A stretch of DNA of 64,000 nt from a virus, in IMG/VR virus record IMGVR_UViG_3300046804_006785; one strand, 5' to 3'. The notes beneath the pieces were generated by a model that did no database searches, was not told where the DNA came from, and worked only from the letters and a program-made list of their open reading frames with translations. Made by a program: the position numbers and the translations under genes. Below, piece after piece: positions 206-63,156 of the stretch. How positions within the stretch are numbered: the first letter of the stretch is position 1; each line of letters opens with the position of its first letter.

Positions 206-3200
206 ATGAATATTTTAAATAAAACAACTGAAAATACAGAATTTTTAGAAAATATTGAACTAGTCCTCAGTTATTTTACAGGACTACCTATAGAAACATT
301 TTTAAAGAAGTATAACTTCATGCTACGTACTGGTAGTGGTTACTCTGTCTTTAAGGATGGTAAGAAAGTCTTTAAAGAGGCGTATCATAACTATTACTAC
401 CACGCTCCAGAAGGTAGACAGGACGTAAAGGATTATTACTTAGCTAAAGATTTGTCCGCTAGACAAAAAGCACAAGCTGAAGCGGAAAAGGAAGCTAAAG
501 AATTTGGGAAGCCTTTAAAAAAAAATCCTATAGATAATGATAATCATATCTATGGCGAAGACCATCTATATCGGTGGCTACGGAATAAAAGACATGAGGG
601 TTTATTTGTCTATTTCTTACCTAATAGTATTGATGCAGGCTGTACTGCTGATGAAATAGACAATTTTGGTGGTAAGTGCCGGGCAATGCGGATTGAAAAC
701 GATGACCTCGCACCAGTAGCAATTAAATCTGAGTATTTTGCACAGTTAGGACTACCTGAACCATCTATAAAATTATTTTCCGGTGGTAAATCTCCACACT
801 TCCTCTTTACCTTCCTTTCAGATGTAGATGGTGAATTACCTGGTTTTGAATGGGAACGGGTAGCAGAAATTAACGCCCAACTGTTACGGAACTCAGGTCA
901 TGACGGCTATGAAAAAACTATTGATAATCTCATTAAAGATGCTAAAACTCTATTAATACGCTTACCTGGTTTTGAGCATCAGAAAACCCGTAAAGAATCT
1001 AAGATTTTAGAGATTAGCAACATTTGGGATATCAACGAATTAGAGGCAGAAGTCAACAAACTTCCAAAACTAGGTAACTACAAATTACAAACAAAAGACT
1101 TCACACCGGACACCTATCCCGGTGGCGTTCAAGCTTTTGAAACTATCCTTTCCTCTGAGTGGAAACAACGCTTTCACCCATACGAATCCTATGCTGACTA
1201 CAAAGCCAGACTAGCTGCTAAGGCAGAAGAGGATAAGGCCAGAATCGAAGCTAACAAGGCAGAACGTGAAAAGCAATTACAAGGCTTGTCACCAAAAGAA
1301 ATCAAACGTCGTGCAGAATCAATCAAAGGTGAGATTGTTTCCTTACTACAGTTTGTAGATTACGCTGTTAAGCAACACGTTGAAAATGGTACTCCCGACG
1401 GTACAGGTCGCTCTCACAAAGTGGCTAAGTACGTCGCTAAGTCTTTACTTGAGGCGCAATACTTGGTTAGTGGTTCACCATTACGCGCTAAAGAGTCAGC
1501 AGAAGAGTTATTTAGACAATGGGTAGATAAGACTTTTAACTCCAGTGAGAATGATTTAATCAAAAAGGTTTGGACTACTTTTACTAGTTTTGAGAAAGGT
1601 ACAAATGTACCCCATGCCCGCCATGTTGATAAGTTTGAATCCTATTTGACTTCCCGACAAGAGACTAAAATTGGTGAGGACGCGATCGCTCATCTCAAAC
1701 ACAACCGTACTATTACTAACTTGATTGAAGAGGCTGTACGTGGACTCAAACAAAAACCACAACAGCTTACTTTTGCAGATTTGCCTTTGCTCTATAGTGC
1801 ATCTGAGAACGGATGGAACAACACCATCACTTTCTTAATTGAAAATAAATCTATTTATATAACAACTTGTCCTACTCATGCTCTAGCTATACTGAATACG
1901 GGTATACCTGGTGTGTGCTATGTGAATAAGGAAACATCTGCTGTAAATCTGCATTTATTGGCAGAATACGCTTGTGAGAATGGATTTACTTTTAACTTTA
2001 CGCCTAACGCTCCAGGAACAGATAGAATGTTGGCAGAAAACTTACGCGCTGGGTATTATTCTCAAGTTGCGCGTAATTTACTAAGAAAAAATAATAAGGA
2101 TACCAAGATTAAAGACTACAAACCTACTGTAGTTGTGATTGATGAGAAAGGTATTGAATGGTCGGCTCATTATTACTGGGTACGTGTTCCACAAGTAATT
2201 ACCCCCAAGATGCTGGGTAATCGTAAGAATAAAGAAGCTTTATTATATGGTCACGCTGCTAATCGTAAATGGTTTAGTGATGTTGTCAAAGAATGTGAAT
2301 CAACAGCTAAGAACCGCAAGCTAGTGGCGTTTGTGTCTGAAATGGGTACTGGTAAAACTGAGGTTTTAGCTAACCAGGTAAAAGCTTGGACTGAAGGTAA
2401 AGGTCAATTATTGGCCATTGCTCACCGTGAGCAATTAACCCGACAAGCGGCTAAACGGTTAAATATTGTTGACTACAAAGCACCACATTATAAGAGTGCT
2501 TCTGAGAAATATGAAGCGGCTAAAAAACAAGGTTTAGCTATCACTATCAATACTCTGTGTCAAGGTACGAATGAACAGGGTTATTTACCTGACTTTAAAA
2601 TTGACGATTGGAAAGACGCAACACTAGTCATTGATGAAACAGAGTCTTTTGTAAAATACTTAATTGAATCAGGCACTATTGCAGAAAATAGACAAAAGGC
2701 TATTACTGCTTTAAAAGCATTGGTAGTTGCTATCTATAAAGCAGGTGGCAGAATTATATTAGCTGATGCCAATTTAAGAGTATCAACTATTAATATGTTT
2801 CAGCGTTGGTGCAGTGGTGATGATTATGATGCAGAAGCAACCAAGGCCAAATACAACTGCTATGTGATCCTTAACTCTTATTGCAAGTTTAAAGAGGAAG
2901 GTCGCAAAGCAATATTTACTGATGCCCGCGATGGATTGAACAGCGAAGTTAACCGTCGTTTAGCAGCTAAAGACAGCACACATAAGGCTTTGTTTTTTGC
3001 TGACGTTAAACAATCATCTTCTAAGTATTATTGGGCAACTCAAGGTTTTGGTAATTATCTCCGTGACCTAAAATTAGGACGGATTTTAGATGCTGATACC
3101 CGTCAATTTAGCGATGACCCAGATCATCATATTGTAGATAATCTTCATGCCGTCATTAGTGCGTGCTGTAAAGGTGTGATATTTGTATCTCCAGTAATTG

Positions 3201-4636
3201 ATTCTGGTACTGACTGGAATAATTTAGGTCTTGACTGTGTATACGGTGTATACATGGGTATCATGGGTATAGATAACACACTACAACAATTAGAACGGGT
3301 TCGGGATAATGTAGTTCGTTTTATTTGGGCTGCACGTCGGTCATCTATGGGCATGACTAAAGGTGATATTACCAATATTGAAAAGAACTTTGAGGAAGTA
3401 AGACGCAGTTATGATGGCTCTAAGGCTGCATTAATGCAGACTTGGGCTGATATGAAAGTATTACAGCATAGTGAAATTGAGGCTCGTATAGCTGCACAGT
3501 TCCCAGATTTAGATAAGAATATTCTAGCTTGGTGGCAAGATTCTTTAGAGGAAAGTTTCTATGCGGCTCAAGAGTTCCGTATTAATTTAAAAGCACGGAT
3601 GCAAGAAAAAGGCTACACAATTGAGCATCAAGACTTTGAATCAGATGCAGAGTTTATTGCTACTTTGCAAGAATATGGTGAAGCGCAAAAAGAAAAGAAA
3701 CTTGTAGAAATTGCTAATGCCGATCTAGCCTTATTGGATTCTATTGAAAAGAATCAAGATACCATGCCTAAAGATACCGCACGGGCTAAAGATTTGAAAG
3801 GTATTCTTTATTCCTTGGGTGTGAAAGTAGAAGGTGGGTACGGTTGGTGCAATGGGTACAATGAAGATGAAAAACTGGAGTTAGTCCGCAGGACATTGGG
3901 CAAACGTTCTAAGACACGCCGGAAGTTAGTTTATGGCTTTAGCTTCCGATGTGCGATGACTAATGGCCAAGAGGATATTGCCAAAATTATCTATATGGCT
4001 GAAGAGTTCCGCAACATGATCAACTCTTCTAGTAGGTCAATCAAAGATACTCCTATGAGTATGAAAGCTGGTATTGATTTTATGATCAATACTATGGATA
4101 TCAAAGGGCTTGCTTCTGTATTACTTCAGGAAGCTAGTAAGCGCGGAAAATTGGATAATGGTAGACCTGTAATGTTTTTCCACAACCGGATGCCAATTAT
4201 TATTAAGACTAATAAGGTATTGGTAGAAAACCGCGCCTATGTCAAAAAAACCTTTGGGTTTGATGTAGATGTCCGTCCAGATATGGCAGCTACAAACATT
4301 TCCAAGTTCTTTACTTGCATTGGTTGGAACGTTGAGAAAGGTAGAAATCGTGAGGCTGGTGCAGGTAAAGCAGCTAACGGTAATGCACCTCTCAATAACT
4401 ACACCATCACTGAGGATCAATTAACGCTCAGAGTTTGGACTGGCTGGGTAGCACAATATGAGAATAGAGATGAGGGAATGTTCAGCTACTTCTATAATCC
4501 TAGTGGCGATGAAGGTGGCGATGCCCTATGGAAGGCTCATCTAGGAATTGCTACCGAAACCACAGATAAACAGGTCAGCAAACCAGTCTTTCAACAACTA
4601 CAACAGCACAGGCAACTGGCGTTCCTAACAGTCTAA
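206..4636 (+). CDS. Plasmid-type replication initiator: RepB'-like primase fused to an SF2 origin-binding helicase (CyRepA1-like)
   Basis: N-terminal primase motifs RIENDD, SGGKSPH and LIRLPGFEHQKT; Walker A EMGTGKT; Walker B IDETES; motif V/VI-like SPVIDSGTD and QQLERVR; 1476 aa. Confidence 0.8.
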   Translation: MNILNKTTENTEFLENIELVLSYFTGLPIETFLKKYNFMLRTGSGYSVFKDGKKVFKEAYHNYYYHAPEGRQDVKDYYLAKDLSARQKAQAEAEKEAKEFGKPLKKNPIDNDNHIYGEDHLYRWLRNKRHEGLFVYFLPNSIDAGCTADEIDNFGGKCRAMRIENDDLAPVAIKSEYFAQLGLPEPSIKLFSGGKSPHFLFTFLSDVDGELPGFEWERVAEINAQLLRNSGHDGYEKTIDNLIKDAKTLLIRLPGFEHQKTRKESKILEISNIWDINELEAEVNKLPKLGNYKLQTKDFTPDTYPGGVQAFETILSSEWKQRFHPYESYADYKARLAAKAEEDKARIEANKAEREKQLQGLSPKEIKRRAESIKGEIVSLLQFVDYAVKQHVENGTPDGTGRSHKVAKYVAKSLLEAQYLVSGSPLRAKESAEELFRQWVDKTFNSSENDLIKKVWTTFTSFEKGTNVPHARHVDKFESYLTSRQETKIGEDAIAHLKHNRTITNLIEEAVRGLKQKPQQLTFADLPLLYSASENGWNNTITFLIENKSIYITTCPTHALAILNTGIPGVCYVNKETSAVNLHLLAEYACENGFTFNFTPNAPGTDRMLAENLRAGYYSQVARNLLRKNNKDTKIKDYKPTVVVIDEKGIEWSAHYYWVRVPQVITPKMLGNRKNKEALLYGHAANRKWFSDVVKECESTAKNRKLVAFVSEMGTGKTEVLANQVKAWTEGKGQLLAIAHREQLTRQAAKRLNIVDYKAPHYKSASEKYEAAKKQGLAITINTLCQGTNEQGYLPDFKIDDWKDATLVIDETESFVKYLIESGTIAENRQKAITALKALVVAIYKAGGRIILADANLRVSTINMFQRWCSGDDYDAEATKAKYNCYVILNSYCKFKEEGRKAIFTDARDGLNSEVNRRLAAKDSTHKALFFADVKQSSSKYYWATQGFGNYLRDLKLGRILDADTRQFSDDPDHHIVDNLHAVISACCKGVIFVSPVIDSGTDWNNLGLDCVYGVYMGIMGIDNTLQQLERVRDNVVRFIWAARRSSMGMTKGDITNIEKNFEEVRRSYDGSKAALMQTWADMKVLQHSEIEARIAAQFPDLDKNILAWWQDSLEESFYAAQEFRINLKARMQEKGYTIEHQDFESDAEFIATLQEYGEAQKEKKLVEIANADLALLDSIEKNQDTMPKDTARAKDLKGILYSLGVKVEGGYGWCNGYNEDEKLELVRRTLGKRSKTRRKLVYGFSFRCAMTNGQEDIAKIIYMAEEFRNMINSSSRSIKDTPMSMKAGIDFMINTMDIKGLASVLLQEASKRGKLDNGRPVMFFHNRMPIIIKTNKVLVENRAYVKKTFGFDVDVRPDMAATNISKFFTCIGWNVEKGRNREAGAGKAANGNAPLNNYTITEDQLTLRVWTGWVAQYENRDEGMFSYFYNPSGDEGGDALWKAHLGIATETTDKQVSKPVFQQLQQHRQLAFLTV

Positions 4637-13030: not shown

Positions 13031-14434
13031 TTAAAGTTTATTATCATAGGCTGAATGTGTCCTTCCCATTGGCAGATTTGGTGATATAGCAGATCCGTAA
13101 AGTCGGGCTGTTGTTGAATTGTGAGGGACTGTAAATACGCGCCTATCTGCAATCAAAATACCACCAGCAAAAGCACCACTACCAGGATAAGTGACACTAG
13201 GTGTAGTAGTTGCATCTGACATAGAGCCATATATTCTTGCTGTAGTAGAGTTGAAAGGAATAAGAAACACTTGTCCATCTGGTAATAACACGCCACTTGC
13301 AAAAGCACCATTACCAGGATATGTAGAGTTAGATGTGATTAGTGTATTAATTGATGGATCGTATATCATCGCGCTTGTAGCATTGAACGGTACACAGAAT
13401 ACTCGACCATCTGGTAATAATACACCACCAATAAAAGCGTTATTGCCTGGATAAGTACCCGTAGGGGTAATTACTGTATTTGCTAAAGGATCATAAATTC
13501 TTGCTGTAGTAGAGTTGTGTGGTACACAGAATACCCTTCCATCTAGCATCAATACACCACCAGCAAAAGCAGCGTTTCCTGGATAAGTACCATTAGGTGT
13601 AATTAATGTGTTAGCCGTTGGATCGTATATTCTTGCTGTAGTGGATCTAAATGGTACACAGAAAACTCTACCATCTGGCAGCAACACACCACCATAGAAA
13701 GATTGACCACCTGGATAAGTGCCGTTAGGTGTAGTTAATGTGTCAGTAGAGGCGTTGTATATTCTAGCTGTAGTAGAGTTGAAAGGAATAAGAAATACCC
13801 GACCATCAGGCAACAAAACACCACCAGAAAAAGCATCATTCCCAGGATAAGTACCGCTAGGAGTGGTCAGCGTGTTAGTAGATGGGTTAAATATTCTAGC
13901 TGTTGTTGATTTAAACGGAATACAAAATACTCTATTGTCTGATAACAATACACCACCATAGAAAGCGTTACTGCCAGGGTAAGTACCATTAGGTGTAGTT
14001 AATGTATCAGTTATAGCACCGTAATTGAATTGCCGAACATCAATAAATTTAGCAGTTGGTGCTAGTGGGAAGTAGCGGAAGTCTAAAGTATCATCTTCTG
14101 TAAAACTAGGCCGGAAAACTTGAACTAAACTTAGGTCTAATGTGAATACTTCTATATTCTGACAAGTCCATTTAAAAGACTCACAGCAATATAATGCACC
14201 GTTAAAAATTATGGGTTGTCCTAAGTTAGTGGTAAGAAAATTATCTATCTCTATGTATTCTGTAAACTTAGTCACTACTAATGATAGTGCCTGTGTTTTG
14301 GCAACTTGGTTAATTTGGTTTCTGTTGCCTTTCTCATCTACACCACCATAGTAATTTTGAGTTAGATATGAAGATTCAAAGCTGAGAGCATTTTCCCAGC
14401 TTAGTTTAAGGGAATTAGGGGCAGTAGCAAACAT
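13031..14434 (-). CDS. Divergent gpM/Dit-like N-terminal domain fused to a 7-bladed kelch-like beta-propeller
   Basis: First ~110 aa resemble a distal tail protein (..IDNFL..N.GQP...YCCESFKW....FTLDLSLVQVFRP); seven GGVLLPDGRVFCVP repeats. Confidence 0.7.
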   Translation of the reverse strand: MFATAPNSLKLSWENALSFESSYLTQNYYGGVDEKGNRNQINQVAKTQALSLVVTKFTEYIEIDNFLTTNLGQPIIFNGALYCCESFKWTCQNIEVFTLDLSLVQVFRPSFTEDDTLDFRYFPLAPTAKFIDVRQFNYGAITDTLTTPNGTYPGSNAFYGGVLLSDNRVFCIPFKSTTARIFNPSTNTLTTPSGTYPGNDAFSGGVLLPDGRVFLIPFNSTTARIYNASTDTLTTPNGTYPGGQSFYGGVLLPDGRVFCVPFRSTTARIYDPTANTLITPNGTYPGNAAFAGGVLMLDGRVFCVPHNSTTARIYDPLANTVITPTGTYPGNNAFIGGVLLPDGRVFCVPFNATSAMIYDPSINTLITSNSTYPGNGAFASGVLLPDGQVFLIPFNSTTARIYGSMSDATTTPSVTYPGSGAFAGGILIADRRVFTVPHNSTTARLYGSAISPNLPMGRTHSAYDNKL

Positions 14435-39071: not shown

Positions 39072-39243
39072 TTTTTTCCTTATCTGCTACTGCTAATCCG
39101 GCACTACCTGATGCTAAAGCTAAGGAAATATTGAACGCGCCACTGCTTTTTGCATCGGATAAATTAGGAGCATACACTACTGCTAAGGCTAGTATAGTAC
39201 TAAGCGCGGCAAATATTCCCGGTAATACTGTGGTGTTTTTCAT
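39061..39243 (-). CDS. Small two-TM membrane protein (holin-like)
   Basis: MKNTT start with ATGA overlap on the portal stop; two hydrophobic segments and a charged C-terminus. Confidence 0.5.
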   Translation of the reverse strand: MKNTTVLPGIFAALSTILALAVVYAPNLSDAKSSGAFNISLALASGSAGLAVADKEKNDH

Positions 39244-41150
39244 AGTTTTGGCATCATTAGTGAGTTTGAGTAGTATTTTACGCATTTACAATTAGACTTA
39301 CATTGACAGTTTTCTCCAGGGTTAGGCAGTGTACCAATTTGCGCCCATCCCATCCCAGTATAACGAATACAATCATCACAGCTATGGTTTGCTGCTATTA
39401 CTCTACGTTCCCATAAATAACCATTGCGCTTGTGTCCTTCTAGTCTGCCACGTTCTTTAAAGTGATTAGTTTTGTTATAGTACATTTTTATACGCGCTTC
39501 TATCTGTGCTTCAGATAGATTGCCTCTTAAAATATCTCGTGAAAATCTACGCAGATATTGATATTCAAGATTTAATTGACCATTAATTAATGAGTAGTCC
39601 TGCCAGTCCATCTGTTTTGCTCCACCTATACCTAATGCATATTGATAGATAGCTAAACTTCTTAGTAGTTCTGCTGTTTGCCGTTCCCATCTAGCAACGT
39701 TAATTTTTCCAGAAAATAAGGCGTTATTCACAACTTCGCCTAGTTCTAAATGATCTTTAATCGCTTGTTCTGTTAACTGCTCTATCTGACTTTCCTTAAC
39801 AAACCGACCTTTCTTAGAACCGTTGGCATAGTGATAACGTTGGCTTTTTTTGTTCCAAGTAAAGTTAGTAGATTCTTGGTTCTTGGACTTAGTTAATAAG
39901 TCAGGTTGATACTTTTTTTGGCTGGTTTCCACCTCCTCTATAGGTGCTTCTTCTAAGGCTGTGATATTTGCTAATGCTCTCATTTTATTGAGTACATCTA
40001 AATCATATTTGCTGAAAGTTCCAGTAGTTACACAATTATTAATAATGTTTAATAATGCGATTGTATCTGTATTATCTTCTGTGACAAGAGGAAAAGTACC
40101 ATAGTCGTCTAACTCGCCAAAGTTAAACTCTAACATTGGGCGGATCGCTTGTTCAATTAATGCTTCCCCTACTATCTGCATTTGGGATCTAGTCACTAAT
40201 CTAAGAATAGTTTGATGTCCTTCGTTTAGGTTACTATCGCCACTGCTGACCGTGCCTGTTCCTGTAACTGTGCGAGGGACTAGCCAAGCTAACATGATCA
40301 TTGATTCTAAGTAGCCTAAGATATTGGTGAAGAAACTACCGTCCGTTTCATGAGAAATTGCCTCAATCTCATCAGCTAAATCAATTACTGCATAGGAATT
40401 ATTTTTGATATCTTCTAAGTTCCTAGACATGACATAACCCTGATTAAATAATCTTGGCTCACCTGTGTTTGGATCTATATAAGGCTGTCCAGTTTCAGGG
40501 TTAATCATGCTGACAGAATTATTACCAGTATCGGTTTTTCCTACTAACAATTTAGTGGCTTGTCTTTCTGATGCTACAGCCATACAAGCGTTTATTACTT
40601 TTGTTAGTTCCCAGTAAGGATATGCCCGACGGCAAATAGCTACACCGTGAGGATCACTACCTAAAGCGAGATAAGGCTGGTTTACCAAATGAATCCCATT
40701 CTCGTAGGGAATATAGATATTGCTAAATCTTAGATAATTTACCCTACTTATTTGTCCGTTGAATCCTTCAAACCAATAATATCTAGGATCTACTGTTCTG
40801 ATAATGTCTAAGTATGCCTTTCTTTTTTTAATCTTGTAACTCACTTCTGAAAATGACTTACCAAAGGGGATAAATGTCAGCATTTGTGAAACGACATTTA
40901 ACCAACTACCTTCCATTGCGTTGATTGAGTTTCTGACAAAAGTTTGAATATCATGGTCAGGATGTTGATATTTATCTAGCATAGAAACACCCAGCAATAT
41001 TCGCAGGTCATTAGCCGCGCTGGCTACTGGTGAATCTTTTAACATCTCTACATAAGTATTAGCTATGTTTCTATCAGACTGTTGTACCATCCCGATCCAA
41101 GTTGATACTAATGCTTGGACTTTAGGGGAAAGAATATTAGTGTTTAACAT
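39240..41150 (-). CDS. Portal protein (DUF935-like) fused to a head-morphogenesis (MuF-like) domain
   Basis: FGKSFSEVSY, DPHGVAICRRAYPYW and LIEQAIRPMLEFNFG portal motifs; C-terminal WERRV..HSCDDC..PGENCQCKSNCKC. Confidence 0.85.
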   Translation of the reverse strand: MLNTNILSPKVQALVSTWIGMVQQSDRNIANTYVEMLKDSPVASAANDLRILLGVSMLDKYQHPDHDIQTFVRNSINAMEGSWLNVVSQMLTFIPFGKSFSEVSYKIKKRKAYLDIIRTVDPRYYWFEGFNGQISRVNYLRFSNIYIPYENGIHLVNQPYLALGSDPHGVAICRRAYPYWELTKVINACMAVASERQATKLLVGKTDTGNNSVSMINPETGQPYIDPNTGEPRLFNQGYVMSRNLEDIKNNSYAVIDLADEIEAISHETDGSFFTNILGYLESMIMLAWLVPRTVTGTGTVSSGDSNLNEGHQTILRLVTRSQMQIVGEALIEQAIRPMLEFNFGELDDYGTFPLVTEDNTDTIALLNIINNCVTTGTFSKYDLDVLNKMRALANITALEEAPIEEVETSQKKYQPDLLTKSKNQESTNFTWNKKSQRYHYANGSKKGRFVKESQIEQLTEQAIKDHLELGEVVNNALFSGKINVARWERQTAELLRSLAIYQYALGIGGAKQMDWQDYSLINGQLNLEYQYLRRFSRDILRGNLSEAQIEARIKMYYNKTNHFKERGRLEGHKRNGYLWERRVIAANHSCDDCIRYTGMGWAQIGTLPNPGENCQCKSNCKCVKYYSNSLMMPKL

Positions 41151-52047: not shown

Positions 52048-52105
52048 TTAATATTGATAACTTATGTGTAAAATTATATACATCTAAAATAGTTTTATAA
52101 AATGC

Positions 52106-52134
52106 TTGACATTAATTTTAAATGCCGTTATATT
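52106..52134 (+). promoter_or_regulatory. Sigma70 promoter, family 3
   Basis: TTGACA-17-TATATT. Confidence 0.75.
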
Positions 52135-52166
52135 ATTAGTGTGGTTAAAACATAGGTAAACCGGAC

Positions 52167-53309: not shown

Positions 53310-53339
53310 AAACCTAGTACAGAATTACTAGGTTTTTTT
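53310..53339 (+). terminator. Intrinsic terminator
   Basis: AAACCTAGTA-cagaat-TACTAGGTTT plus T tract. Confidence 0.75.
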
Positions 53340-53352
53340 ATTTTATATGGGG

Positions 53353-53387: not shown

Positions 53388-54310
53388 AATCGAATAAATC
53401 CGATAGCGAAACAATCGAGCGTTGTAACACACCTCAGCGTTTATCATAAAAGCCCTAGACCAGTAAGGAACGCAAGATAAGTCGGTGAAGTCATTACCCG
53501 GCTTGAAAATTAAAGACTCTCATTTAGTTTTTAATTGGAAATTGCTTCTAGTCCGTATGCGTGCGCGTGGCGGATTCTAGTTGAGACCTAAATCCTGTAA
53601 GGATTAAAAGTGAATCAATAAAAAAGTAGTGCAGATTGCGTTGGCCATGACGATACCCTGAAATGGGGACAATATAATTGAGCGGACTTGAGGGGATATC
53701 AAAAATTTAGTAAGGTAGTGAGACTTTACTGAAGGGATTGAACCAAAAAACTAGATCCATATTTGAGCGCGATTTCCATGAACATTAGGTATTAACTAGA
53801 CGAGGGGAGCTACTTTTAGAAGTAAATGACTCCAGGTGCGGCGGTGTAGATGTTAGCAAAAGTCTATTGATACGTAGCTTAAAATATCAGATGAGTTTGG
53901 TTAAACACAGTTTGCGACTACATAAGCGCAAAAAACCATCAGAGCAAGATGTAAAAACACCCACATATCAGTAACCTAACTGATCAAGTAAATAGGACGC
54001 TTCTTGACGACACCAAGAAAAAATTCCTAAGCGGACGGGAATATTGAACCTTAGCGGGGGAGATAAATTGAAAGCAACCATTTTTCTGTATGGTGTACAG
54101 ACAAACAGTAAAATCTTAGCGGGTTCAACTGGGAGAAAGTACAAAACAGATAGAACCCCTTTGGTTGTAGGGTTTTAGTTAGGAAAGCAAAGTAACTTTA
54201 GCGGGTGAAACGCTTGAGGATTAAATAAAACAACCAAAATCACTAAAGAGCTATAGCCCTTGACATCTAGTGGATAGGATGTCAGTTATCCATAGGGTTT
54301 ATTACAGCTT
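53388..54310 (+). ncRNA. Large ornate structured ncRNA (GOLLD/ROOL-like size class; family unassigned)
   Basis: No ORF of 60 aa or more; visibly GC-richer than its flanks; many consecutive hairpins; 5'-3' closing helix 53432-53442/54208-54219; two pseudoknots at the 3' end. Confidence 0.75.
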
Positions 54311-54326
54311 AAAAAATTAAATAGAG

Positions 54327-54737
54327 AACCGGGCATTAAAAAGTTTTTTTAACTAAAAATGCTCAAACATTTATGCTGTCAATTTTTAGGTTAGTACATA
54401 ATTACTATACTATATGCTTACTGTTTTATAAATTACTCTGTTAAGTGTTTATAGTTAGCTAATTGGAATTTCCGCGCCGACTTGTAATAACAGAGTGTGC
54501 TTTATATAAGTATTCTAGGAGTTAAAATATAGTTTTTAATATGTTTTTTACTAAAGTTATTTTTAATACTGATTACTAATAATTTACTGAGAAAAATAGC
54601 AAAAAAAGCTAAGGTGATCCAAAAGTTGAGAAAATCATAATATATAAGCTATCGTTTTTAGAACTTTTGGATCACCCTACAGTTAATAACATCACTTACT
54701 AAAAAACATTAAAAGTAAAAAGCTTTATATATCAATA
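54327..54737. other. Putative origin-like module 2
   Basis: AACCGGGCATTAAA; perfect 15-bp inverted repeat GGTGATCCAAAAGTT/AACTTTTGGATCACC at 54613-54676; AAGCTTTATATATCAATA; mirrors module 1. Confidence 0.5.
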
Positions 54738-54997: not shown

Positions 54998-55222
54998 ATG
55001 TTAGACTTAAGACAGGTTGACATTGACAGGTTGCATGAAACACTGGAATTGATGCGCTTGCAGTTGGGGTGGTCTAAAAGACAATTAGCAAGTGAGACAG
55101 GCTTTAGCTATAAACGAGTCCGCATTTGGATTGATACTGGCTATGAAACAGCAAGCTATTCCAGAATCAAGAAAGTATTTCAGGTTATGAAACAAGCGTT
55201 AGAACAGCAAACACAACCATAG
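54998..55222 (+). CDS. XRE-family HTH protein
   Basis: MRLQLGWSKRQLASETGFSYKRVRIWIDTGYETASYSRI. Confidence 0.8.
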   Translation: MLDLRQVDIDRLHETLELMRLQLGWSKRQLASETGFSYKRVRIWIDTGYETASYSRIKKVFQVMKQALEQQTQP

Positions 55223-55227
55223 AACGT

Positions 55228-56832
55228 ATGCCGTACCAATTTTTTAAGGATGACCAGTATTTCATTGCCTTGGATGGTGGTCAAACTGGGTTAAATCAGG
55301 AAGCGATCGCTAAACTGTCTGGCGTACATCAAACCACGATAGGCAGATTAGTCAATAACGTAAGACAAACATTGTCTAACTATGAACAGCTTCAATGTTT
55401 TTACAAAAAGAAAGAATCTCAATATCTGCTAGATGTCTTTGGGCATCAAAATCTTTTTGACAGCAATTATGCTTTTGGGATAATTGCCTACTATGCAGAA
55501 ATAGAAAGGAACTCAGAAGCAATAAAATCTCTAGTCTCCATTGGGCATATTGGACTACGTGCCTATATACAGCACGTTACCGGGTTTCAAGTACATTTAG
55601 GGGGACAGACTGATTTGGACTCCTTACACGACCGTTTGGACATAACTGCAGAAATGTTAAGAAGGACGGATCACAAGGTAGCTAATCTAGAATACTTCCG
55701 AGATCACATTTCCGATATCTGGCAGCATCTCCTAGAGTTTAGGGACGGCAAAAGCTACTACCAGGATTTAGCAGTTCTGCCTCCACAGGTACAGAAAAAC
55801 GCCTTCAAACACATCAATAATCTGAAAGAGATATTCTGGACGATTTATAAGATTAGAAGGGATTGTGGCGTATCCTCACTTGACCAGCTATCAAAAGACA
55901 GGATCGAGATTGTAAATAAAACCTTACCCGCAGCATTGACTACTACCAGGGGTGTACCTGGACGTGGTTGTGATCTGAAAACTTGGCAGTGGGATAAACT
56001 TTTTAGTCTGGATTTTAATATGCTGTATGAGGAAACCTTAGTTTCTCAGGATAAGCAAGGCGTTTCTAAATTTGGCAGACGTAAGGACATTAGCAAAATA
56101 GTCTGTGCTACTGCTAAGGAAAATCGGCTGGTTAAAGATGAGCCATTGATTAATGCAATGGTTGACAGGTTTAAAGCAGACTATCCAGAACGTTTAGACC
56201 TGTTTGAGATAAACACTTACAGATCCCAAAACAATCTTGAGGAAGCTTACCTTTTAGAACGGTTAGCACAATCTGATGTAGAGAAAGGAAAACTACTAGA
56301 AAGGGATTATCCAAGGTTTGATGCTAGTTACAAATTACGTCATCAGATGCGTACTTTTGTAGGGTTCATGCGTCAGTTACATTCTAGTGAAAAGCAATTG
56401 TACTGTTGTATATGCGCTTTTTCAAGCTGGGCAAAAATGATCGTAGACGTAGCACCTGCAAACAGTTTACCCTTTATGCCAACTAGATACTTACCACCAG
56501 ATCAAGAGTTGTATATACATGAACAGTACCGGGGCTTGCCTTATTTAGAAAGACATCATTTCTATTATCCCCAAGTGTTTGATGCCATCTTAGATGTAGA
56601 AAGAATGCTCAAAGTCTTAGCAGACAAGTATCATATTCCGTACAAGAATAGGCTACTCATGCTTAAACTTTTTGAAAGATGTCAATTAAAAGGCTCTCAT
56701 AAGGACTACCGAGCCTTTCATAACGACTTGTCTGCAATGAACGACTGTAAACTAGTGATCGCTAAATGGTGTGCAAATGAACTGCAATCAAAGGATTGTT
56801 TTGATTCTGATTTTGAAAGCCTGACCAGGTAA
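55228..56832 (+). CDS. Antirepressor-like HTH N-terminus plus unknown C-terminus with CxxC/HH motif
   Basis: GLNQEAIAKLSGVHQTTI..IIAYYA..IGLRAYIQHVTGF; C-terminal YCCIC...LERHH. Confidence 0.55.
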   Translation: MPYQFFKDDQYFIALDGGQTGLNQEAIAKLSGVHQTTIGRLVNNVRQTLSNYEQLQCFYKKKESQYLLDVFGHQNLFDSNYAFGIIAYYAEIERNSEAIKSLVSIGHIGLRAYIQHVTGFQVHLGGQTDLDSLHDRLDITAEMLRRTDHKVANLEYFRDHISDIWQHLLEFRDGKSYYQDLAVLPPQVQKNAFKHINNLKEIFWTIYKIRRDCGVSSLDQLSKDRIEIVNKTLPAALTTTRGVPGRGCDLKTWQWDKLFSLDFNMLYEETLVSQDKQGVSKFGRRKDISKIVCATAKENRLVKDEPLINAMVDRFKADYPERLDLFEINTYRSQNNLEEAYLLERLAQSDVEKGKLLERDYPRFDASYKLRHQMRTFVGFMRQLHSSEKQLYCCICAFSSWAKMIVDVAPANSLPFMPTRYLPPDQELYIHEQYRGLPYLERHHFYYPQVFDAILDVERMLKVLADKYHIPYKNRLLMLKLFERCQLKGSHKDYRAFHNDLSAMNDCKLVIAKWCANELQSKDCFDSDFESLTR

Positions 56833-56968
56833 AAAAATAACCCTGATAGTTCTTAAACTATCAGGACGACTTTCATATAAACCGTAAGTGACTTGGTGTT
56901 GTTATTAGATTATACCTCAAGTTCCTAAAATAATCAAATCTGTGTCAAGTATTTTTTTTATAGAATAC

Positions 56969-56997
56969 TTGACATTATTTTTATATGCAGTTATAGT
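56969..56997 (+). promoter_or_regulatory. Sigma70 promoter, family 3
   Basis: TTGACA-17-TATAGT. Confidence 0.75.
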
Positions 56998-57026
56998 AAG
57001 AGAGCAAAGGAAACATAGATAAAACA

Positions 57027-57341: not shown

Positions 57342-57372
57342 TGTATAAATACTTCCCGTTAAGGAAGTTGGA

Positions 57373-57567
57373 TTGAAACTAGTGATAACTAAAATGGTCA
57401 ACTATCGCTTTAAACTTCGTAAACATCAGCACAGAACCAGTAAGATTATATTTTCTAGTTCTTGGTTTACTGCTGATGACTATTTAGGAGCAATATTTAT
57501 CAAAGATCACTTTCTTAAAAATAATCCTGAATTTAAGGATTGTTACATAACATGGGAACATAAATAA
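57373..57567 (+). CDS. Hypothetical protein
   Basis: 64 aa followed by a hairpin terminator. Confidence 0.45.
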   Translation: MKLVITKMVNYRFKLRKHQHRTSKIIFSSSWFTADDYLGAIFIKDHFLKNNPEFKDCYITWEHK

Positions 57568-60644: not shown

Positions 60645-62051
60645 CTAAACTAAAGCTAAAACTTCTTTAACTATTGCTTCTTTAAGTTGTACATCTGTGA
60701 CAGTAGCCAAAAGGTTTTGTAGATGTGTAGTAGCATCCTTCACTTGGCTATCAATAGTTGGTTCTGTGGTAACGGGTTCTAACACAGCAACAGCCGTTGA
60801 TTTTATTTCTGGTAAGGCTTCCTCAGTTTCATGATTAACTTCTGTAGATAACTGTGGTAATTCTTCCCAAGCCTTCTCTACTAGACTTTTTACGCCTAAA
60901 GCTTCTACAAACTCATTTAAAATCATTCGATCATAATCTGTAGATTCCATTGATAATAAACCTATATTAAAATCATCTACTTCCACGCCTAACAATCCCC
61001 AAGAATGGGGTAGTTTGATTTTAATTGTTTTAGTTTTTAAGCTATCCACTATCTGTACAAGCTTTTCAGCCTCTATCAAACAGGAAGCAATCACACCAGA
61101 AGTATTAGCTTCTAGATAATCAGAACTATTATCTGTAATAAAGTAAAGATTACCTGCTTGTAAATGCAACCATAATCTTGTAATTTTCTTTTCATTACAA
61201 ATGATTGCCGCTTTTATTCTTGATAATAAGTGCTTCCTATCAAACTCTACATCAGTGTAAACAGTACCATCTTCTAAATTTGTGTCAGGTAGTGGTTTAT
61301 AACTGCGAGTGCCTTGTATTAGTTCCCAATTATCAAAGTTAAAGAACAGTAGATCACCATTTGTTAATTCATATTCCTGTACACTAAAAGTAATATCAGT
61401 GTTCTCTAAGTCCTTTAATTTTTTGACCAGATTCAATTTATTTAAAACTGGAATTAAATCTGGCGGTATAAAAATACTAGGTGCATCTTTGCTTACTTTC
61501 AAATCTGCATAGGCTAATTTATGACCATCACAGGCTGCAAGTTTACCATAAGCTAAATGTACATTATTAAGGTTTTCTGTGTAACTATTTTTGCTGATGT
61601 GTTCACACAAGGTTTTAGCTTTATTGAAAAACTGAATACCATCAACAGTCACTTGTTTATCTGTTTTTTCAGGTTTTGGAAACTCTATGAACTCAGGACT
61701 GTCATAAGCTTTAATAGCTTGTTTCAGATTGTTAGTTCCTATTGTTAATTCTTCACCATTACCAGATAGGATTAACTCTAATACACCGTTAGATTTAATT
61801 TTGGTGATGATATCAGAAAATAGTTTAGCAGGTATACAGCACTCGCCTGGTTCAACTACATTGCAGCTAATAAAAACAGTAAGATATGCCTGTAAATTTG
61901 TTGCCCGTAATCTAATACCCTCTCTACCGTTTTCTTTGATAGTTTGGCAATAAATATTTGCTAAAATTGCATGAGTGGGACGCTTAGGAATTACTGCTAA
62001 TAGTCCAGGTAAAGCTTCAGCTATTTCTTTGATTGTGGTTATGATTCTCAT
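60645..62051 (-). CDS. Divergent DNA polymerase III beta clamp paralogue with C-terminal extension
   Basis: PKRPTHAILANI, LRATNL, PAKLFSDII and AACDGHKLA motifs; 468 aa. Confidence 0.75.
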   Translation of the reverse strand: MRIITTIKEIAEALPGLLAVIPKRPTHAILANIYCQTIKENGREGIRLRATNLQAYLTVFISCNVVEPGECCIPAKLFSDIITKIKSNGVLELILSGNGEELTIGTNNLKQAIKAYDSPEFIEFPKPEKTDKQVTVDGIQFFNKAKTLCEHISKNSYTENLNNVHLAYGKLAACDGHKLAYADLKVSKDAPSIFIPPDLIPVLNKLNLVKKLKDLENTDITFSVQEYELTNGDLLFFNFDNWELIQGTRSYKPLPDTNLEDGTVYTDVEFDRKHLLSRIKAAIICNEKKITRLWLHLQAGNLYFITDNSSDYLEANTSGVIASCLIEAEKLVQIVDSLKTKTIKIKLPHSWGLLGVEVDDFNIGLLSMESTDYDRMILNEFVEALGVKSLVEKAWEELPQLSTEVNHETEEALPEIKSTAVAVLEPVTTEPTIDSQVKDATTHLQNLLATVTDVQLKEAIVKEVLALV

Positions 62052-62055
62052 GTGT

Positions 62056-63156
62056 TTAATCCTTAATTTGAAGAGGCATTACTAAATATTTGATCTTCTG
62101 AGTGCTTAATGGTGAAAAAACCACAGGAGTTAATTTAGCGTTAAGATTAATCTGTACTTCTGTAGAAGTAAGATTTTTTAAAACACTTATTAAGTACGGA
62201 CAATAAAACGCAGTTTTCAAACTATCACCGGATATTTGTGCTGGTAAGGATAATTTAGTTACTCCTACATCAACTACTTGAGATGTTAGAATTATTTCTT
62301 GATTTTCTGGGTTTATTTCAAAGTGAACACCATTATGTTTTAATGAGGAGATTACTTGAATTTTCTCGACAGCATCAAGTAGGGCAATACGATCAACAGT
62401 CAGTTTTTTATCAAACTGTCTAGGAAATAATTTAGTGTATGTTGGGTATTGCCCTTCCATAAGTCTGCTAGTGAGTTTGTAAGTATCAAACTCAAAAGCA
62501 ACATCAAAATCCTTAACAGTGATCTTGACATTATCAACTTTTTCTAGAAGTTTTTGCAGCAATAGACACGCTTGGTTAGAAATTGTAAACTCTGTATCAG
62601 AGTTTGTGTATTCGCTAGTTAATTCTATTAATGAAAGTGTATGTCCATTAGTAGTTGCAAATTCTAAATTATGTCCTTGCAACATAGTCAGATGCACACC
62701 ACAGATATTACCTCTAGTTTCATCTGTACTAGCACTAAATAAAACTGCTTTTATACCTTCTGTAAGTTTCTTTGCTTCTAGCTGGTAAGCATCCCCATCT
62801 TGTATTGTTGGTAAGTCGGGAAAATCTGTAAATGGTGAACTTGGTAATTTGTAGCTCCCAGTGTTAGTCTGTACTAAACAGACTTCATCATTTATAGTCA
62901 AAACTACTTCATCTGCAACTAAAACTTTAAGTAAGCTTAATAACTGCTTACATGGGAGTAAACCGTTACCAGACTCTACTACTTGACCTACTACAGTTGT
63001 TGATAAGCTAACGCTTAAGTCAGTAGTAGTCATTCTTATAATAGAATCTGCTTGTACTAGGGCATAATTTAAAATTGGGGAATACTTAGCATTACAAGCC
63101 AATGCTAGTTTTTCCAGCTGATCACGCAGATCAACAACGGAGCATATTATTTTCAT
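62056..63156 (-). CDS. dnaN: DNA polymerase III beta clamp
   Basis: TTDL, DFPDLP, ASTDETR, ATTNGHTL, RLMEGQYP and YLVMPLQ motifs; 366 aa. Confidence 0.92.
   Translation of the reverse strand: MKIICSVVDLRDQLEKLALACNAKYSPILNYALVQADSIIRMTTTDLSVSLSTTVVGQVVESGNGLLPCKQLLSLLKVLVADEVVLTINDEVCLVQTNTGSYKLPSSPFTDFPDLPTIQDGDAYQLEAKKLTEGIKAVLFSASTDETRGNICGVHLTMLQGHNLEFATTNGHTLSLIELTSEYTNSDTEFTISNQACLLLQKLLEKVDNVKITVKDFDVAFEFDTYKLTSRLMEGQYPTYTKLFPRQFDKKLTVDRIALLDAVEKIQVISSLKHNGVHFEINPENQEIILTSQVVDVGVTKLSLPAQISGDSLKTAFYCPYLISVLKNLTSTEVQINLNAKLTPVVFSPLSTQKIKYLVMPLQIKD

What the first reader, a model, noticed from the sequence alone, without database searches (positions are those of the whole stretch)
53388..54310. 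Unannotated ~920-nt highly structured non-coding RNA with pseudoknots (candidate new or divergent giant phage RNA)
Seen: a terminator, then a consensus promoter (TTGACA-17-TATATT, extended -10), then ~920 nt with no ORF and packed with hairpins (e.g. 53479-53504, 54001-54019, TTGAACC 54044/GGTTCAA 54122, 54261-54284). An 11-bp long-range helix joins the ends (CCTCAGCGTTT 53432-53442 with AAACGCtTGAGG 54208-54219). TTTGGTTGT (54160-54168) is perfectly complementary to ACAACCAAA (54230-54238), and loop TGGATAG (54271-54277) pairs with TTATCCA (54286-54292), giving two pseudoknots. Known: GOLLD and ROOL are large ornate RNAs often found in phages, of unclear function. Inference: a member or new class of this kind in a cyanophage, lying directly upstream of origin-like module 2. 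I cannot assign the family by eye.
Basis: partly seen in the sequence, partly recalled or inferred. Interest (0 to 1): 0.9.

Follow-up and report, generated by a model that had tools for sequence, protein, structure and literature searches.

The report
New giant modular cyanophage RNA
A family of lake viruses that probably infect cyanobacteria carries a gene for a roughly 950-base, intricately folded non-coding RNA of an undescribed family, whose conserved frame holds a swappable 200-300-base cassette and which probably assembles with copies of itself, as the GOLLD and ROOL cage RNAs do.

Summary
Real RNA gene, new family. Window ~53388-54345 (+) has its own promoter and no ORF. It recurs at the same place in 14 distinct phage sequences (four lineages, 69-86% identical cores). 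Of 99 modelled pairs, 98.5% of cells pair and 32 show two-sided changes. It occurs in freshwater RNA libraries of several studies. Rfam finds nothing, while real GOLLD and ROOL controls score 130-216 bits, so it belongs to neither. Both 'pseudoknot' pairings covary, but the 3' one has linkers too short for an intramolecular knot, so it is an intermolecular kiss or a switch. New: 54014-54255 is an exchangeable cassette. Three unrelated types exist, and two are shared across distant lineages while 99%-identical phages differ. Relatives also carry type I-C CRISPR repeats inserted inside the gene. Best reading (about 0.45): a self-assembling scaffold carrying a variable, conflict-driven cassette. 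Function untested. The scan noted this stretch before only in this same genome.

The parts
53310..53343 (+). Intrinsic terminator of the upstream early genes; insulates the RNA gene
   Evidence: conserved with stem changes in L026, L027, L029
53353..53381 (+). Sigma70-type promoter (TTGACA-17-TATATT, extended -10); start inferred near 53388
   Evidence: -35 box invariant in four lineages. Start site inferred, not mapped
53388..54345 (+). The non-coding RNA, about 950 nt (891-1006 nt in intact homologues); 3' end not mapped
53406..53857 (+). 5' domain closed by a long irregular helix P1 (53406-53455 with 53805-53857)
   Evidence: 32 pairs, 97.7% of cells paired, 7 pairs with two-sided changes
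53478..53505 (+). Hairpin with an 18-nt invariant upper part; outer stem covaries
   Evidence: 4 two-sided changes in L029
53638..53770 (+). Conserved multi-helix junction (closing helix 53638-42/53766-70; hairpins 53656-67, 53688-702, 53706-33, 53735-58) with invariant loops
   Evidence: model R1
53913..54019 (+). Four short hairpins; stems vary and covary, loops and linkers invariant (AGCAAG, AAAAACACC, CAAGTAA, ACGACAC at 54007-13)
54014..54255 (+). Exchangeable cassette, type A in this window (three UUAGCG-loop hairpins; four in L087 and L029); types B and C in relatives
54151..54238 (+). Helix 54162-68/54230-36, kept in all cassette types; pseudoknotted with hairpin 54151-54177 only in type A
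   Evidence: one compensatory change in the hairpin of L029
54248..54310 (+). 3' terminal domain: 8-bp hairpin whose loop (54269-77) is complementary to a 9-nt bulge (54285-93) at its own base; probable intermolecular kiss or switch
54346..54700 (.). Conserved AT-rich origin- or operator-like DNA with a 30-bp inverted repeat (54610-54679); context, not part of the RNA
   Evidence: its first motif is also seen in Nodularia phages
54998..56832 (+). HTH gene (74 aa) and 534-aa protein with a KilA-N/BstA-like N-terminus; downstream of the RNA wherever the contig reaches that far
   Evidence: Most homologues were found through these genes, so the linkage is partly by construction
57343..57379 (+). 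Solitary 37-nt type I-C CRISPR repeat; same family as repeats inserted inside the RNA gene of relatives

Best explanation
A phage-encoded, separately transcribed, non-coding RNA of a new family that works like the GOLLD/ROOL cage RNAs. (1) Shown by sequence and conservation: a host-type promoter behind a terminator drives it. (2) Shown by covariation: it folds into a 450-nt 5' domain, a run of short hairpins with invariant loops, and a 3' terminal domain. (3) Inferred: copies join, at least through the 3' loop of one molecule pairing with the 3' bulge of another, and probably through invariant loops of the 5' domain, giving a dimer, ring or cage. (4) Shown: between the conserved parts sits a 190-300-nt cassette that exists in three unrelated forms and is swapped between near-identical phages. 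(5) Inferred: the cassette is the cargo, kept diverse by conflict with the host or with rival phages; type A presents one loop motif three or four times, as a decoy for an RNA-binding factor would. The gene is accessory, since some relatives have lost core helices.
For: Homologues at the same locus in four lineages with 69-86% core identity. 99 pairs, 98.5% of cells paired, 32 with two-sided changes, versus 34-42% and 0-5 when partners are slid; 68 of 74 changed cells still pair. Unbiased helix scan: 14 helices with two or more double changes versus 4.6 +/- 1.8 in column shuffles. 3' domain: 7 pairs with double changes versus 1.4 in shuffles, 0/500. 17 RNA runs hold it, among 20 holders from 9 studies; contigs of four studies cover it within 53406-54334 and three bridge 53861. 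Loop-bulge duplex -7.8 kcal/mol, lineage-specific (-1.2 to -1.6 across lineages); linkers of 2 and 1 nt would have to span about 30 A (approximate A-form model). In ROOL and GOLLD, covariation-predicted tertiary pairings proved to be intermolecular bridges, and both have a variable linker that in GOLLD can carry tRNAs (PMC12286853). Cassette: window/L016 core 99% but cassette at near-chance identity; window/L029 core 78%, cassette 82%; L002/L026 core 72%, cassette 81%.
Against: No multimer, transcript end, strand or partner was measured. RNA evidence is assembled contigs from runs chosen because they hold the sequence, so depth cannot rank expression. The loop-bulge pairing covaries in one lineage only, and L026 folds it as a plain alternative hairpin, so a switch fits as well. 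The helix model was drawn from the same alignment that scores it, and four lineages are few. No tRNA genes in the window or the 118-kb relative, unlike typical GOLLD/ROOL loci. No target or binding partner of the cassette was found.
Confidence: 0.45

Rival explanations
1. Monomeric decoy or sponge: the RNA binds host or phage proteins through its invariant loops and repeated UUAGCG hairpins, CsrB-style, and the 3' element is a two-state switch or end-protector, not an assembly contact.
For: Three to four copies of one loop motif, with copy number varying by a 37-43-nt unit; alternative 3' fold is favoured in L026.
Against: Types B and C lack the repeated motif yet replace type A in the same frame; the 600-nt covarying core is far more than a sponge needs; the same loop occurs in real GOLLD sequences, suggesting a structural loop.
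Confidence: 0.2
2. Carrier of CRISPR decoys (Racr-like) or of guides against sibling phages: the strong promoter is used to express type I-C repeat units that Cas5c cuts out.
For: 37-nt repeats with an 11-nt 3' tail sit inside the gene at three sites in four relatives (L001, L002, L084, L086) and at three nearby sites, all on the transcribed strand. They match the arrays of the L002 phage, which encodes cas3, cas5c, cas8c and cas7. Racrs are solitary repeats behind promoters (PMC10651486).
Against: The window's RNA and lineages L026, L027 and L029 hold no intact repeat; insertions in L084 and L086 destroy core helices, so they look secondary. Bases before the would-be protospacers (GTC, CTA, GTA) are not the TTC PAM known for I-C (own knowledge). 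L084 (k=31 assembly) could be a chimera. This can explain derived alleles only.
Confidence: 0.1
3. Cis partner of the downstream module: a replication primer or regulator for the origin-like DNA, or an RNA antidote to the BstA-like 534-aa protein.
For: Fixed order terminator-promoter-RNA-origin-like DNA-HTH-534-aa protein; Nodularia siphophages keep that order with a different ~410-nt non-coding stretch behind a promoter. Atlas feature hits to BstA_C clusters at 0.90-0.91.
Against: Linkage is partly a result of how homologues were found. The Nodularia stretch is unrelated by nhmmer and by two covariance models, so the protein family exists without this RNA. No complementarity to the origin region. 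The BstA link is a lead only; the fold search gave no significant match.
Confidence: 0.15
4. Catalytic or intron-derived RNA that excises or circularises its 5' domain.
For: One RNA contig (run X4) joins 53861 to 53405/6, exactly the two ends juxtaposed by helix P1, with no microhomology.
Against: One run of four; three others read straight through 53861. No hit to Rfam group I/II intron or ribozyme models at E<=10. No flanking exons. Reverse-transcriptase jumps or ligation at a helix base can make such junctions (own knowledge).
Confidence: 0.07

Closest known systems
GOLLD RNA (Rfam RF02032; 14-mer cage, PMC12286853)
   Same: Phage-encoded, over 800 nt, many covarying helices, separable 5' and 3' domains with a variable linker, lake habitat, weak MFE z-score, UUAGCG loops in some members.
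   Different: No match to the conserved 3' domain model (controls 151-216 bits). Here the 5' domain is the conserved part; no tRNA neighbours; the variable part is a structured cassette with three discrete types.
ROOL RNA (Rfam RF03087; octamer cage, PMC12286853)
   Same: Large, ornate, phage-borne, abundant and dispensable in one strain, covariation-predicted kisses that are intermolecular, non-conserved linker.
   Different: No match (control 130 bits); 950 versus about 580-660 nt; different helix topology; probable cyanobacterial host.
   Same: Apical loop complementary to a bulge loop of the same sequence, usable only between molecules.
   Different: pRNA is about 170 nt and serves the packaging motor; this RNA lies among early genes, 12-40 kb from portal and terminase, with no sequence or size similarity.
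RNA anti-CRISPRs / solitary repeat units (PMC10651486)
   Same: Solitary type I-C repeats on the sense strand behind a strong phage promoter, in relatives and at window 57343-57379.
   Different: The window's RNA has no intact repeat; here repeats are inserted into a pre-existing large RNA, and the phage clade has its own I-C interference genes.

Membership tests
GOLLD (RF02032) | Conserved ~400-nt 3' domain matching the covariance model | tested here: not met
   No hit at E<=10 in window, L027 or G002; four real GOLLDs score 151-216 bits; my two models find nothing in them
GOLLD (RF02032) | Often next to tRNA genes | tested here: not met
   No tRNA in window or in the 118-kb relative
ROOL (RF03087) | Match to the 574-position model | tested here: not met
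   None in G002 or window; L. salivarius control 130 bits
Large ornate phage RNAs (GOLLD/ROOL kind) | Over 500 nt, non-coding, many covarying helices | tested here: met
Large ornate phage RNAs (GOLLD/ROOL kind) | Expressed as an abundant discrete transcript | tested here: inconclusive
   Present in 17 RNA runs; contigs of four studies lie within 53406-54334, but contigs show neither ends, strand nor level
Large ornate phage RNAs (GOLLD/ROOL kind) | Protein-free homo-multimer | not testable with these tools
   Only indirect: covarying loop-bulge pairing with linkers too short for one molecule
Group I / group II intron, RNase P, tmRNA, OLE, HEARO, other Rfam families | Match to an Rfam 15 model or ARAGORN | tested here: not met
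Racr / solitary repeat unit | Intact CRISPR repeat in the transcript | tested here: not met
   Absent from the window RNA; present in alleles L001, L002, L084, L086
Racr / solitary repeat unit | Inhibits Cas interference | not testable with these tools
   Needs an interference assay
H-type pseudoknot (3' element) | Loop 3 long enough to cross stem 1 | tested here: not met
   2-nt linker versus about 30-34 A across an 8-bp stem (fibre coordinates from memory, approximate)

The most novel reading that the evidence does not exclude
A third, independently evolved phage RNA cage whose frame displays interchangeable cassettes that act as decoys against cyanobacterial or rival-phage defences, the cassette types being held in balance across distant lineages and, in some alleles, supplemented by inserted type I-C repeats that are cut out as RNA anti-CRISPRs. 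This would tie a function to the variable linker of a cage RNA.
Probability: 0.18. Interest if true: 0.9.

Novelty: new variant of a known kind. Interest (0 to 1): 0.72.

Why it matters
Only a handful of bacterial or phage RNA classes above 500 nt are known and their functions remain poorly understood. This adds an unrelated family and offers a natural experiment the others lack: near-identical phages differing only in a discrete cassette, plus natural deletion alleles. That makes two open questions directly testable: whether cage formation is general among large phage RNAs, and whether the variable linker is the functional cargo. If it is as abundant as the contigs hint, it may also mark active infection in bloom metatranscriptomes.

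Tried and rejected
Single-sequence folding and helix counts were uninformative. blastn of the RNA against cultured phages and plasmids found nothing. Motif scans of IMG/VR returned only the L002/L013 phage or nothing; GTDB genomes gave nothing; the 45 metagenome hits to an 18-mer showed no similarity beyond the motif itself. A small GOLLD HMM reported no residues processed and was disregarded. Remembered resemblances to RNase P, 16S helix 44, group II domain V and lambda boxB were dropped: no Rfam support, and the order or conservation did not fit. A boxA reading of the cassette motif was rejected: it shares only 7 bases with the boxA-like sequence in the phage's CRISPR leaders. A decayed-repeat reading of 53551-53587 and 54037-54073 is unproven. 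50 spacers of the L002 phage do not target the window or any RNA allele. No RNA contig covered 52759-53260 or 54767-56272, but a gap in contigs proves nothing. The Nodularia stretch does not fold better than shuffles (z +0.3). The 534-aa model was low-confidence (pTM 0.36) with only weak Ski/Mbp1-type N-terminal matches. One search failed on a mistyped structure and was redone. Paper searches found no description of this RNA; the library is incomplete.

Full report
Setting. The window is part of a tailed-phage genome: terminase, portal, lambda-like minor tail protein L, two beta-clamp genes. A cyanobacterial host is likely but not shown. Evidence: a CyRepA1-like protein (E 2e-46, below the family cut-off), Nostocales plasmids among the best beta-clamp hits, seven HIP1 octamers where about 0.25 are expected (expectation is my estimate from G+C), and Nodularia phages as the only cultured relatives of the downstream protein. 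The finding lies in a 1.7-kb gene-free gap between early genes and an HTH gene.

Observation. Every quoted motif is at its coordinates; terminator and promoter are found. One sequence alone proves nothing: MFE z -1.8 and helix counts equal to shuffles. Real GOLLD and ROOL RNAs are no better (z -0.7 to -1.6), so I sought homologues through neighbouring proteins. This gave 14 distinct sequences in four lineages (window group, L026, L027, L029; cores 69-86% identical), each with the terminator and promoter upstream and, where the contig reaches, the same genes downstream.

Structure. An unbiased scan for helices that pair in all four lineages found 14 with at least two double changes, against 4.6 +/- 1.8 in column-shuffled controls. 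A 99-pair model has 98.5% of cells paired and 32 pairs with two-sided changes; sliding partners gives 34-42% and 0-5; 68 of 74 changed cells still pair. The model was drawn from this alignment, so the scan control carries more weight than the percentage. Inside lie hairpin 53478-53505 and a junction at 53638-53770 with invariant loops. Four short hairpins follow, with covarying stems and invariant loops. Region 53540-53636 aligns poorly and was not modelled.

The 3' element. Hairpin 54261-54284 has five double-changed pairs, and its loop pairs with 54287-92 with two double changes in L029. The partner strand is a 9-nt bulge at the foot of the same hairpin, tethered by 2 and 1 nt, while crossing an 8-bp stem needs about 30 A (approximate). 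With both stems formed this cannot be one molecule's pseudoknot. It is either a loop-bulge kiss between copies (-7.8 kcal/mol, and lineage-specific) or one state of a switch, which L026 favours in isolation. In ROOL and GOLLD such covarying contacts proved intermolecular (PMC12286853). I lean to the kiss, by inference.

The cassette. Between loop 54007-13 and the 3' domain lie 193-304 nt in three unrelated forms. L016 is 99.8% identical to the window over 3 kb yet carries type B, with identity near chance (0.64 versus 0.56 mean, 0.62 maximum for shuffles). Type A is shared by the window and distant L029 (cassette 82%, core 78%) and type B by L002 and distant L026 (81%, 72%). Both types therefore predate the lineages or move between them, and both also appear in RNA contigs (joint 54013-54229 in X2, insert not read). 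Type A has three or four UUAGCG-loop hairpins, varying by a 37-43-nt unit. Helix 54162-68/54230-36 is kept in all types with covariation; it is a plain hairpin in B and C and, in A, pairs out of the loop of hairpin 54151-77 with sound pseudoknot geometry.

Expression. Twenty public runs from nine studies hold the sequence, 17 of them RNA, mostly freshwater. In four studies the contigs at 95-100% identity lie within 53406-54334, at contig depths of 45, 55, 3 and 200-230; matches to flanking genes were short and mostly shallow or divergent. Variants in these contigs include a compensatory pair (53577 C>T with 53585 G>A). This supports transcription but cannot give ends, strand or level. One contig joins 53861 back to 53405/6, the two ends of the closing helix: a possible circle or a library artefact.

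Family. Rfam gives nothing at E<=10 for the window or L027, nor at gathering score for four lineages. Controls work: GOLLD 151-216 bits, ROOL 130 bits. My two covariance models find nothing in those controls or in Nodularia phage 2AV2. There are no tRNA genes. It is thus not GOLLD or ROOL, though it resembles them in kind. The family appears narrow: no copies in GTDB genomes or cultured phages.

CRISPR repeats. A 49-nt insertion in L002 holds a 37-nt repeat. The same family forms two arrays (31 and 21 repeats) in that phage around cas3, cas5c, cas8c and cas7, a type I-C module with no cas1 or cas2 seen among the proteins scanned. Solitary copies sit inside the RNA gene after 53411 (L001, L086), after 53809 (L002, L086) and before 54014 (L084), and at three nearby sites including window 57343-57379. 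All six sites are on the transcribed strand. In L086 and L084 they replace 40-110 nt of core helices. Sharing of junctions between independent samples argues against assembly chimeras, except possibly L084. These alleles show the fold is dispensable in some lineages and that its promoter may be re-used for Racr-like units (PMC10651486), but the window's own RNA has no intact repeat.

Mechanism. Shown: independent gene, conserved fold, exchangeable cassette, presence in RNA libraries. Inferred: self-assembly through the 3' kiss and invariant loops, with the cassette as cargo under conflict-driven selection (0.45). Rivals: monomeric sponge with a 3' switch (0.2), cis partner of the origin/BstA-like module (0.15), CRISPR-decoy carrier (0.1), self-processing RNA (0.07). 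That it is a real structured RNA of an uncatalogued family I put at about 0.95.

Verdict. Observation partly confirmed, interpretation partly supported; a new family within the large ornate phage RNA kind, with a modular feature not described for the others in the paper I read. Interest 0.72.

Noticed in passing
window 57343-57379: Solitary 37-nt type I-C CRISPR repeat between early genes, sense strand; present in L087/L088/L090, absent at that site in L002 and L095. Racr candidate.
   Followed up: partly
G002:C1 14365-23816 (L114 7365-16816): The 118-kb relative encodes a type I-C interference module (cas3, cas5c, cas8c, cas7) between two divergent arrays of 31 and 21 repeats whose leaders carry a boxA-like motif; at least seven further solitary or paired repeats; 50 spacers match nothing fetched.
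   Followed up: partly
window 54657-54691: An RNA contig in run X2 has this 35-nt stretch flanked on both sides by a different 37-nt CRISPR repeat: a spacer against this phage's inverted repeat, usable to find the host.
   Followed up: no
L104 4640-5200 (Nodularia phages, e.g. KU230356 about 67400-67850): Same position holds a terminator, a promoter-like site and a ~410-nt stretch with several hairpins and a UUAGCG loop, annotated only with tiny hypothetical ORFs; unrelated to this RNA, no Rfam hit, MFE z +0.3. A cultured candidate for another non-coding RNA.
   Followed up: partly
window 53861 to 53405/53406: Circular-type junction in one RNA contig (run X4) joining the two ends of helix P1; circle or artefact.
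   Followed up: no
window 55228-56832: 534-aa protein with KilA-N-like N-terminus and language-model similarity to BstA_C clusters (0.90-0.91); possible abortive-infection or antirepressor protein next to a palindromic element.
   Followed up: partly
window 52093-52135 and 56956-56998: Two 43-bp copies (86% identical) of an early promoter region; the 52106 promoter also resembles the RNA's promoter.
   Followed up: no
window 206-4636: 1476-aa protein with a CyRepA1-like plasmid replication domain in a phage genome.
   Followed up: no
window 60645-63156: Two tandem DNA polymerase III beta-clamp-like genes, the second extended at its C-terminus.
   Followed up: no
window 39240-41150 and 13031-14434: Portal gene lies on the minus strand 26 kb from the terminase, after the 5399-aa ORF; unusual layout.
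   Followed up: no
L010 2015-2948: 934-nt ORF-free gap beside the portal gene in a more distant relative that lacks this RNA; not examined.
   Followed up: no
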